64,000 nucleotides of DNA from Gammaproteobacteria bacterium (GTDB taxonomy: Bacteria; Pseudomonadota; Gammaproteobacteria; JAJFKG01). Of the stretch, positions 381-747 are shown piece by piece (position 1 is the first letter of the stretch; each line of letters opens with the position of its first letter). A program made the position numbers and the translations under genes. The notes beneath the pieces were generated by a model. The model had not been told where the DNA came from and searched no databases. It saw only the letters and a list, made by a program, of their open reading frames with translations. The DNA is taken from the NCBI GenBank assembly GCA_965116795.1, contig OZ220716.1, positions 1,258,503-1,322,502 of the forward strand, in the 5' to 3' direction.

Positions 381-461
381 GAGGAGGGCTTAGACCCCGA
401 TATGGTCACAAAAGCAACAGGCCTGCCTGTGGATAAGTTTGATGAACCTACTGAAGAGTAG
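381..461 (+). pseudogene. C-terminal remnant resembling an Rpn-family (PD-(D/E)XK) nuclease tail
   Basis: Reads EEGLDPDMVTKATGLPVDKFDEPTEE*, resembling the GLDxxxIxKxTGL C-terminal motif of Rpn proteins. A related remnant (...SPVDKLDQPTEE*) ends at 51120. Confidence 0.45.
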
Positions 462-747
462 GTAAAAACATCATTAAAATCATGATGTTATGAAAAAGGC
501 ATTTTTAGCAATTTTATGGTGCACTACTTTCTATGGCACGCCACTAACCATTTTCTAACCTTTCTGTAACCAAATCCGCCATCCAGAAAAGCCTTAGTAA
601 TACAAAGGTTTTTTGGCATAACGCCATGACTTCGAAACACCTAATTTTGGCGATTTTTCGTGATTTTTCCTCCTAATATCGCCAATCCTCTGAAAAGTCC
701 GTACTTTAGCAAACGAAGTACGGAGACATTAAGTCATGATGTTGTAG
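425..747. repeat. Conserved ~320-bp element-junction sequence, copy 1
   Basis: Colinear with 51084-51149 plus 52195-52451. Identical blocks are AACCTACTGAAGAGTAGGTAAAAA and GGTGCACTACTTTCTATGGCACGCCA (518-543 = 52222-52247). Confidence 0.85.

What the first reader, a model, noticed from the sequence alone, without database searches (positions are those of the whole stretch)
425..747. Conserved ~320-bp noncoding junction with covarying hairpins
Seen: the two copies are diverged yet keep stems through compensatory changes. TCCGTACTT/AAGTACGGA corresponds to GTGGTACT/AGTACCGC, and AAAAGCCTT...AAGGTTTT corresponds to AAAAGCCCAG...CTGGGGTTTT. CCTAC/GTAGG and a 26-bp block with GTGC...GCAC dyad symmetry (518-543 = 52222-52247) are invariant. 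Inference: structure or dyad symmetry is under selection, so this may be a recombinase att/arm region, or a structured RNA or terminator cluster facing the cargo operon.
Basis: partly seen in the sequence, partly recalled or inferred. Interest (0 to 1): 0.7.

Follow-up and report, generated by a model that had tools for sequence, protein, structure and literature searches.

The report
Long-armed serine-integrase junction of stacked prophages
This stretch is the seam between two of about a dozen related prophages and prophage remnants stacked behind one tRNA gene, and its unusually long conserved arm likely helps a serine integrase insert each new phage at the tRNA's last six bases.

Summary
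The repeat is real and is an attachment-site junction. The genome holds 16 full right arms. Two start directly after tRNA-Glu and tRNA-Ser; the others join neighbouring prophages or cassettes in a ~503-kb stack (20% of the genome) and a smaller one. All 16 left half-sites tested share exactly six bases with the tRNA 3' end, starting at the centre of a small dyad (window 538-539). That fits a serine-type 2-bp crossover. A same-genus genome has the empty site, and an alphaproteobacterial prophage shows the same ends. Each full element carries DUF2924, a large serine recombinase and a ParB-like DNA-binding protein. Arm type matches recombinase clade in 11 of 11 elements. The recombinase lacks most of the coiled coil that known integrases use for pairing sites. 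The ~250-bp arm holds an inverted copy of the half-site, dyads and IHF-like boxes, so it likely scaffolds recombination; this is untested. Covariation is real but involves three copies of one box in three to four lineages, so a structured RNA is unlikely to be the main role. The scan noted this kind of site before on other DNA.

The parts
387..461 (+). Decayed C-terminal end of an Rpn-family nuclease/transposase gene at the right end of the preceding prophage; explains the conservation of 425-461
   Evidence: Translation matches the C-termini of intact Rpn genes at other element ends; the intact one is TIGR01784
478..490 (+). IHF-consensus-like box in the left (P) arm, 1 mismatch to WATCAANNNNTTR (consensus recalled)
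   Evidence: Same offset (-64 to -66) in 9 of 17 sites scanned, 2 of which are tRNA-flanked and have no P arm; host has ihfA
502..537 (+). P half-site of the junction (right end of the preceding prophage)
   Evidence: a 19/21 match to the tRNA-Ser-type half-site marks the far end of a related prophage in G041
538..543 (+). Six bases shared with the tRNA-Glu 3' end; inferred crossover dinucleotide AC at 538-539
   Evidence: 16 of 16 half-sites share exactly 6 nt with their tRNA end; contig loose end at the same base
544..806 (+). Right (P') arm, type R1: left end of the 51.7-kb prophage
   Evidence: Homologous arms begin right after tRNA-Glu, tRNA-Ser(GGA) and, in L009, tRNA-Ser(CGA)
587..612 (.). 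Dyad A; candidate protein operator; the copy-2 type also scores as a two-way terminator
696..763 (.). Three covarying copies of one 9-bp box: direct 696-704, inverted 718-726, direct 755-763 (the first two form dyad B)
770..806 (.). Site 2: dyad holding an inverted copy of the P half-site, centred 245-247 bp from the crossover, with a spacer that varies; inferred accessory integrase site
   Evidence: Found in 12 of 12 tRNA-Glu-array arms and 1 of 4 tRNA-Ser arms at up to 6 mismatches
538..52243 (.). Lambda-like prophage between the two junctions (gpA terminase, lambda portal, major capsid E, tail, lysozyme; cargo at both ends)
9455..9865 (-). Small protein downstream of the recombinase (PHROG 14161); predicted ParB/KorB/SopB-like DNA-binding fold
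9847..11235 (-). Large serine recombinase, clade R1, with a short coiled-coil segment
11232..11699 (-). DUF2924 protein, overlapping the recombinase start
51084..51149 (+). Left part of junction copy 2
51150..52186 (+). IS256-family insertion in the IHF-like box of copy 2; 8-bp duplication at 51142-51149 / 52187-52194
   Evidence: identical second copy at genome 1506943-1507983
52195..52508 (+). Rest of junction copy 2: P half-site, crossover 52242-52243, arm type R2, site 2 ending at 52508
58127..60368 (-). Second three-gene recombinase module (clade R2) of the next, decayed prophage

Best explanation
The stretch is a phage-phage attachment junction (P half-site, six bases matching the tRNA-Glu 3' end, then a ~250-bp P' arm), likely made when a large serine recombinase inserts a new prophage at the tRNA end, in front of the prophage already there. 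Shown: the arm starts at tRNA ends; the shared core is six bases; the empty site exists in a relative; arm type tracks recombinase clade. Inferred: each phage cuts at the AC (Glu) or CC (Ser) dinucleotide and supplies GCCA to rebuild the tRNA. It then pushes older elements outward, so every internal seam is new-P joined to old-P'. Also inferred, and weaker (about 0.5): the recombinase lacks most of the coiled coil, so the arm would supply the missing control. A second recombinase dimer would sit at site 2, the ParB-like partner (and perhaps DUF2924) on the dyads, and IHF and A-tracts would bend the DNA, as in resolvase-type synapses.
For: Right arms begin at the tRNA-Glu and tRNA-Ser(GGA) 3' ends. 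16 of 16 half-sites share exactly 6 nt with the tRNA, starting at the dyad centre. G001 (same genus; no recombinase or junction found) has tRNA-Glu followed directly by recD2, dciA and marR; in G000 these genes follow the ~503-kb stack. All 11 recombinases lie in the two stacks and none of 4 tyrosine integrases does. Recombinase clade matches arm type in 11 of 11 (Mantel rho 0.82, p 3e-4). In G041 a 43.9-kb prophage of the same family runs from tRNA-Ser through a homologous arm to a 19/21 half-site match, with no tyrosine integrase on that contig. The AcaML1 record, with the same three-gene module, begins with CCACCA. Of 99 relative loci 21 show a tRNA, 19 of them in the same geometry. IHF-like boxes lie within 100 bp of the tRNA in 8 of 19 arms against about 6% of controls. 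The coiled-coil segment is 33 residues in 96 of 104 homologues, about 47 shorter than in A118 integrase. The partner genes flank the recombinase in 95 of 97 and 80 of 83 loci.
Against: No recombination, excision or binding was observed; contigs cannot show a circle. The final attR of the stack is lost beside an IS66, so the host half B' is known only from a relative. The recombinase lies about 9 kb inside the element. The 11 elements form only 3 clades, so the congruence could be plain linkage; I ran no control with an unlinked phage gene. 78 of 99 relative loci show no tRNA (many are viral contigs trimmed at their ends; 7 of 19 genome loci show none). The left-arm profile found nothing in the 99 relative loci, and the right-arm profile only L009 and L074. 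The IHF-like box at +186 is absent from type R1 arms. The ParB-like fold match is Z 6-7, in the range the tool calls common. G-U-type pairs favour the + strand (6:1 and 10:1), which fits an RNA role.
Confidence: 0.85

Rival explanations
1. The core is the att site, but the long arm is not part of recombination. It would be a separate cis region next to attP: operators, a partition-like site for the ParB-like protein on the excised circle, or terminators that shield the tRNA and cargo transcripts.
For: Known large serine integrases need only 40-50-bp sites (PMC3783163, passages). The small protein resembles ParB/SopB/KorB DNA-binding domains. The R2-type dyad A scores as a two-way terminator between the tRNA and convergent cargo genes.
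Against: Site 2 repeats the recombinase half-site at a fixed 245-247 bp. The coiled coil is short. The small gene overlaps the recombinase gene and travels with it. Dyad A of copy 1 does not score as a terminator.
Confidence: 0.35
2. The conserved stretch is mainly a structured non-coding RNA or terminator cluster.
For: Copy 1 folds better than shuffles (z -3.6). 88% of cells pair and 11 of 23 pairs show two-sided changes, above all 500 shuffles. G-U bias to the + strand in dyad B.
Against: Only 3-4 lineages carry most changes, and the structure was taken from these same sequences. The box covaries as a direct repeat too (118/153 against 99 in shuffles). RNAalifold pairs the middle box with the third, not the first. 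Helix A is broken at two central pairs in 12 and 9 of 17 sequences. No Rfam hit at gathering score. The stretch begins exactly at a recombination joint.
Confidence: 0.07
3. The site is a tyrosine-integrase attP (long arms, IHF boxes) served in trans, and the serine recombinase is a passenger.
For: Long arms with IHF boxes at tRNA genes are typical of tyrosine integrases (recalled). Related prophages at tRNA-Ala and tRNA-Met here do carry tyrosine integrases.
Against: Those tyrosine-integrase prophages lack both the junction and the serine module. None lies in the stacks or on the G041 contig. The shared core is 6 nt and starts at the dyad centre. Arms track the serine recombinase clades.
Confidence: 0.04

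Closest known systems
Phage large serine integrases and their att sites (A118/LI, Bxb1, phiC31, SPbeta, TP901-1)
   Same: Same three domains, intact catalytic motif, same overall fold, and a core that fits a central-dinucleotide crossover.
   Different: Known sites are 40-50 bp, need no accessory proteins or DNA, and rely on an extended coiled coil (PMC3783163, PMC5499577, passages). Here the coiled coil is about 47-74 residues shorter, the arm is ~250 bp with an extra half-site, two partner genes are conserved, and the target is a tRNA end.
Dehalococcoides ssrA genomic islands and DsiB (PMC3146451, passages)
   Same: Tandem islands behind a tRNA-like gene, a serine integrase module, and module-less islands stacked among them.
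   Different: There the direct repeat is 20 bp, dsiB overlaps attL, a second serine recombinase (DsiA) is present, and the islands are not described as phages in the passages read. Here the repeat is 6 bp, the recombinase is 9 kb inside, and most units are prophages.
Acidithiobacillus phage AcaML1 recombinase module
   Same: 45% identical recombinase, flanked by a gene at the DUF2924 position and a 'small subunit' gene; the record starts with CCACCA.
   Different: Module sits near the phage end; no mechanism paper was found. Its tmRNA target is recalled, not checked.
Phage WO (Symbioviridae) recombinases
   Same: 43% identical over 76% of the protein; a DUF2924 gene lies downstream of the recombinase in WO (PMC11376236, passages); eukaryote-like cargo lies near the ends.
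   Different: WO types with known sites insert in a magnesium chelatase gene or an intergenic region; 'tRNA' does not occur in the main text of PMC9203015.
SCCmec Ccr recombinases; resolvase and invertase accessory-site systems; lambda attP
   Same: Internal recombinase genes and composite stacking (Ccr); extra subsites plus DNA-bending proteins (resolvases, lambda). Recalled, used as analogy only.
   Different: Scores are far below the Ccr cut-offs (169 against 900 bits). The enzyme is neither a small resolvase nor a tyrosine integrase.

Membership tests
Large serine integrase att system | Resolvase, Recombinase and zinc-ribbon domains with catalytic serine | tested here: met
Large serine integrase att system | Short shared core centred on a crossover dinucleotide | tested here: met
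   Exactly 6 nt shared in 16 of 16, starting at the dyad centre; same in G041. Cleavage position itself is inferred.
Large serine integrase att system | Extended coiled coil in the zinc-ribbon domain | tested here: not met
   33-residue segment in 96 of 104 homologues; two short helices in the model; about 47 residues shorter than A118
Large serine integrase att system | Sites of 40-50 bp suffice, without accessory factors | not testable with these tools
   Conservation extends ~250 bp, but need for the arm requires an assay
Large serine integrase att system | Demonstrated attP x attB recombination and RDF-dependent excision | not testable with these tools
   Only assembled contigs were available
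Tyrosine-integrase attP | Cognate tyrosine integrase in the element | tested here: not met
   None of 4 in the stacks; none of 6 on G041 contig C19
Tyrosine-integrase attP | IHF sites in the arms | tested here: inconclusive
   Consensus matches enriched, 8 of 19 against about 6%; binding untested
SCCmec Ccr | CcrA, CcrB or CcrC above the NCBIfam cut-off | tested here: not met
Dehalococcoides ssrA-GI (Dsi) | Tandem stacking behind a tRNA-like gene with module-less units | tested here: met
Dehalococcoides ssrA-GI (Dsi) | 20-bp repeat, integrase overlapping attL, second recombinase DsiA | tested here: not met
   6-bp repeat; recombinase about 9 kb inside; one recombinase per element
Structured ncRNA | Match to a known Rfam family | tested here: not met
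Structured ncRNA | One consensus structure backed by independent covariation | tested here: inconclusive
   Covariation is real but from few lineages and shared by three box copies
Structured ncRNA | Discrete transcript | not testable with these tools
   No RNA holder listed

The most novel reading that the evidence does not exclude
A widespread family of serine integrases has given up coiled-coil control. It builds a resolvase-like or lambda-like protein-DNA scaffold on a ~250-bp arm with its own ParB-like protein, DUF2924 and host IHF. It needs only the tRNA T-arm side of the target, so it re-inserts again and again at one tRNA end. The result is an integron-like stack of prophages and recombinase-less cassettes of ankyrin and WD40 genes that makes up a fifth of this genome.
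Probability: 0.35. Interest if true: 0.85.

Novelty: new variant of a known kind. Interest (0 to 1): 0.6.

Why it matters
Large serine integrases are valued because they use short sites and no cofactors, with direction set by a coiled coil. This genome gives a ready test set: three recombinase clades with matching arms, an exact predicted crossover, an empty site in a relative, and two candidate cofactors of unknown function. It also shows how one tRNA locus can gather about 500 kb of phage DNA and eukaryote-like cargo genes.

Tried and rejected
Rfam: only group II intron parts in the window and two weak chance-level hits on 350-900. Sequencing runs: no RNA holder listed. Contigs of 4 runs gave loose ends that match other genomic copies, so they are not independent proof of excision. 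Two loose-end sequences after tRNA-Glu in run X1 are not in this genome and were set aside as probably another organism. DNA search of 40 related genomes gave only 3 short weak hits in 2 genomes. A search for a final attR after the last junction of either stack found none. The first box1-box3 test was one column out of register and negative; the corrected test is. A direct copy of the half-site ~260 bp upstream in some elements is a duplicated left end with its Rpn tail, not a general accessory site. Orphan cassette arms match no tRNA end here; my tRNA-Val guess failed. The DUF2924 profile found no credible solved relative. The complex prediction of recombinase with its small partner was not available, and the Foldseek search of the small protein did not run. 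Nine paper searches found no description of this arm or module mechanism; the library lacks most subscription papers, and I read passages only, no supplements.

Full report
Observation. Self-comparison of the window gives two pieces, 425-483 = 51084-51142 and 487-613 = 52191-52317, because copy 2 is split by an IS256-family element at 51150-52186. The two copies are 57/66 and 48/53 identical left of 543 but 121/203 right of it. That step marks a recombination joint. The first 37 bases of the finding are the decayed end of an Rpn-family gene, and the CCTAC/GTAGG dyad is in only 3 of 17 left arms.

Setting. The window is G000:C1:1258503-1322502. Between the two copies lies a 51.7-kb lambda-like prophage. 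Profiles of the left and right parts find 16 full right arms in the genome and one partial inverted arm. Twelve lie in 1.057-1.555 Mb and four in 2.058-2.260 Mb. The first of each group starts at the last base of tRNA-Glu(TTC) or tRNA-Ser(GGA). The tRNA-Glu group spans about 503 kb, 20.5% of the genome. It holds 7 full terminase hits, 1 fragment and 8 recombinases. The tRNA-Ser group is broken in two by core genes.

Empty site. G001, of the same genus, gave no match to the junction or the recombinase (90% complete). There tRNA-Glu is followed directly by recD2, dciA and marR. In G000 these three genes follow the stack in the same order, with the first 203 codons of recD2 missing beside an IS66-like element. 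So the stack was inserted at the tRNA end, and its last attR has been deleted. The genes upstream of tRNA-Glu differ between the two genomes, so synteny holds on one side only.

Crossover. All 16 left half-sites tested share exactly six bases with their tRNA 3' end. The identity starts at the centre of the dyad ATGG-CACG-CCAT, at AC for tRNA-Glu (window 538-539 and 52242-52243) and at CC for tRNA-Ser. Serine recombinases exchange strands at a central dinucleotide (PMC3783163, passages), so I infer the cut is there. An independent case agrees. In G041, the genome of locus L009, a 43.9-kb prophage with the same gene set starts at tRNA-Ser(CGA) with a homologous arm (E 9e-43). It ends at a 19/21 match to the tRNA-Ser-type half-site, the only such match in 60 kb. 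The AcaML1 record begins with CCACCA; its tmRNA target is recalled.

Enzyme. All 11 large serine recombinases of the genome lie in the two stacks; none of the 4 tyrosine integrases does. Related prophages at tRNA-Ala and tRNA-Met carry tyrosine integrases and lack both the module and the junction. The 11 recombinases form three clades that match the three arm types of their own elements (rho 0.82, p 3e-4). This rests on three clades, and one arm (1206516) is inverted relative to its recombinase. Among 99 loci of relatives (19 genome, 80 viral; the viral set is the best 80 of 591), 21 show a tRNA and 19 of these have the geometry seen here. The targets include Ser, Ala, Met, Thr, Val, Glu and Gly tRNAs.

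What is unusual. The segment that holds the coiled coil is 33 residues in 96 of 104 homologues. It folds as two short helices in the model and is about 47 and 74 residues shorter than in A118 and SPbeta integrases (offsets). The coiled coil sets pairing and direction in known integrases (PMC5499577, passages). DUF2924 lies upstream in 95 of 97 loci and the small gene downstream in 80 of 83. The small protein's model (pLDDT 87) has six ParB/Spo0J/KorB/SopB chains as top matches at Z 6.1-7.1. Weak sequence hits agree, but this is a lead only. The arm carries an inverted copy of the half-site 245-247 bp from the crossover with a variable spacer, two dyads, A/T tracts about 10 bp apart and IHF-like boxes. 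In relatives, 8 of 19 arms have such a box within 100 bp of the tRNA, against about 6% of control windows (some arms are related). The host has ihfA.

Covariation. On 17 arms the two named helices pair in 88% of cells, with two-sided changes at 11 of 23 pairs, above 500 of 500 shuffles. Copy 1 folds at z -3.6. But the changes come mostly from three or four lineages. The box of dyad B has a third, direct copy that changes in step (118/153 against 99), and RNAalifold pairs it instead of the first. Helix A is unpaired at two central positions in 12 and 9 of 17 sequences. This pattern fits repeated protein-binding boxes. In favour of RNA, G-U-type pairs lean to the + strand (6:1 and 10:1), and the R2 form of dyad A scores as a two-way terminator. 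A second role in ending tRNA read-through is possible.

Mechanism. Shown: position, core, empty site, co-inheritance. Inferred (0.85): the recombinase inserts each phage at the tRNA end, rebuilds the tRNA and pushes older units outward. Inferred (about 0.5): the arm is an accessory scaffold that replaces coiled-coil control. The main rival is that the arm is a regulatory, partition-like or terminator region beside a short att site.

Known and new. Tandem serine-integrase islands behind tmRNA are known from Dehalococcoides (PMC3146451, passages), and related recombinases occur in AcaML1 and phage WO. Nine searches found no paper on this arm or module. Earlier notes of this scan describe similar long-armed, tRNA-targeting sites on other DNA; they are unchecked and I count them as no support. 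Verdict: a new variant of a known kind, interest 0.6.

Noticed in passing
G000:C1:1407000-1411000, 1433000-1438500, 1493700-1506500, 2114400-2116700: Units of 1-7 kb without a recombinase lie between half-sites, each with one or two cargo genes (ankyrin, WD40, FG-GAP, DUF4915). Several start with a different left arm that keeps part of the normal one. They look like cassettes moved in trans.
   Followed up: partly
G000:C1:1106107, 1407370, 1435151, 1436037, 1498586: The P half-site is interrupted at one of two fixed places by sequences that begin like group II introns. This suggests introns that target the attachment site. Intron identity was judged from the 5' motif (recalled), not tested.
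   Followed up: no
window 61046-63998: Group II intron parts on both strands and a maturase fragment inside the second prophage.
   Followed up: no
window 95-364 and 50176-50928: Toxin-antitoxin-like genes sit just left of both junctions: a RelE-like frame (by resemblance) and a Gp49/HTH_3 pair. Other element ends carry similar pairs or Rpn genes.
   Followed up: no
G000:C1:1197000-1215400: One whole junction (1206516) with its cargo is inverted between two identical IS-like elements; partial inverted arms also lie at 1346811 and 1445810.
   Followed up: partly
window 42681-50089, 54068-56599: Eukaryote-like cargo near prophage ends: WD40, a 2,344-aa Sel1 protein, and an OTU plus deaminase-domain protein.
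   Followed up: no
L041:8300-9500 and window 425-502: In run X3, contigs over the end of the first prophage's early operon and over one left arm have 10-20 times the depth of their flanks, unlike run X1. It may be induction or transcription; the run type is unknown and depth is not a copy number.
   Followed up: no
G000:C1:95000-150373 and 314412-368000: Prophages of the same family use tyrosine integrases at tRNA-Ala and tRNA-Met, so the integration module is exchangeable.
   Followed up: partly
L074:520-805: A viral contig has a homologous right arm preceded by a degenerate tRNA-Ser-like 3' end rather than a tRNA.
   Followed up: no
L161 (G041:C19:76414): Beyond the far end of the G041 prophage lie direct repeats that resemble a tyrosine-integrase arm (resemblance recalled), perhaps from an older island at the same tRNA.
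   Followed up: no
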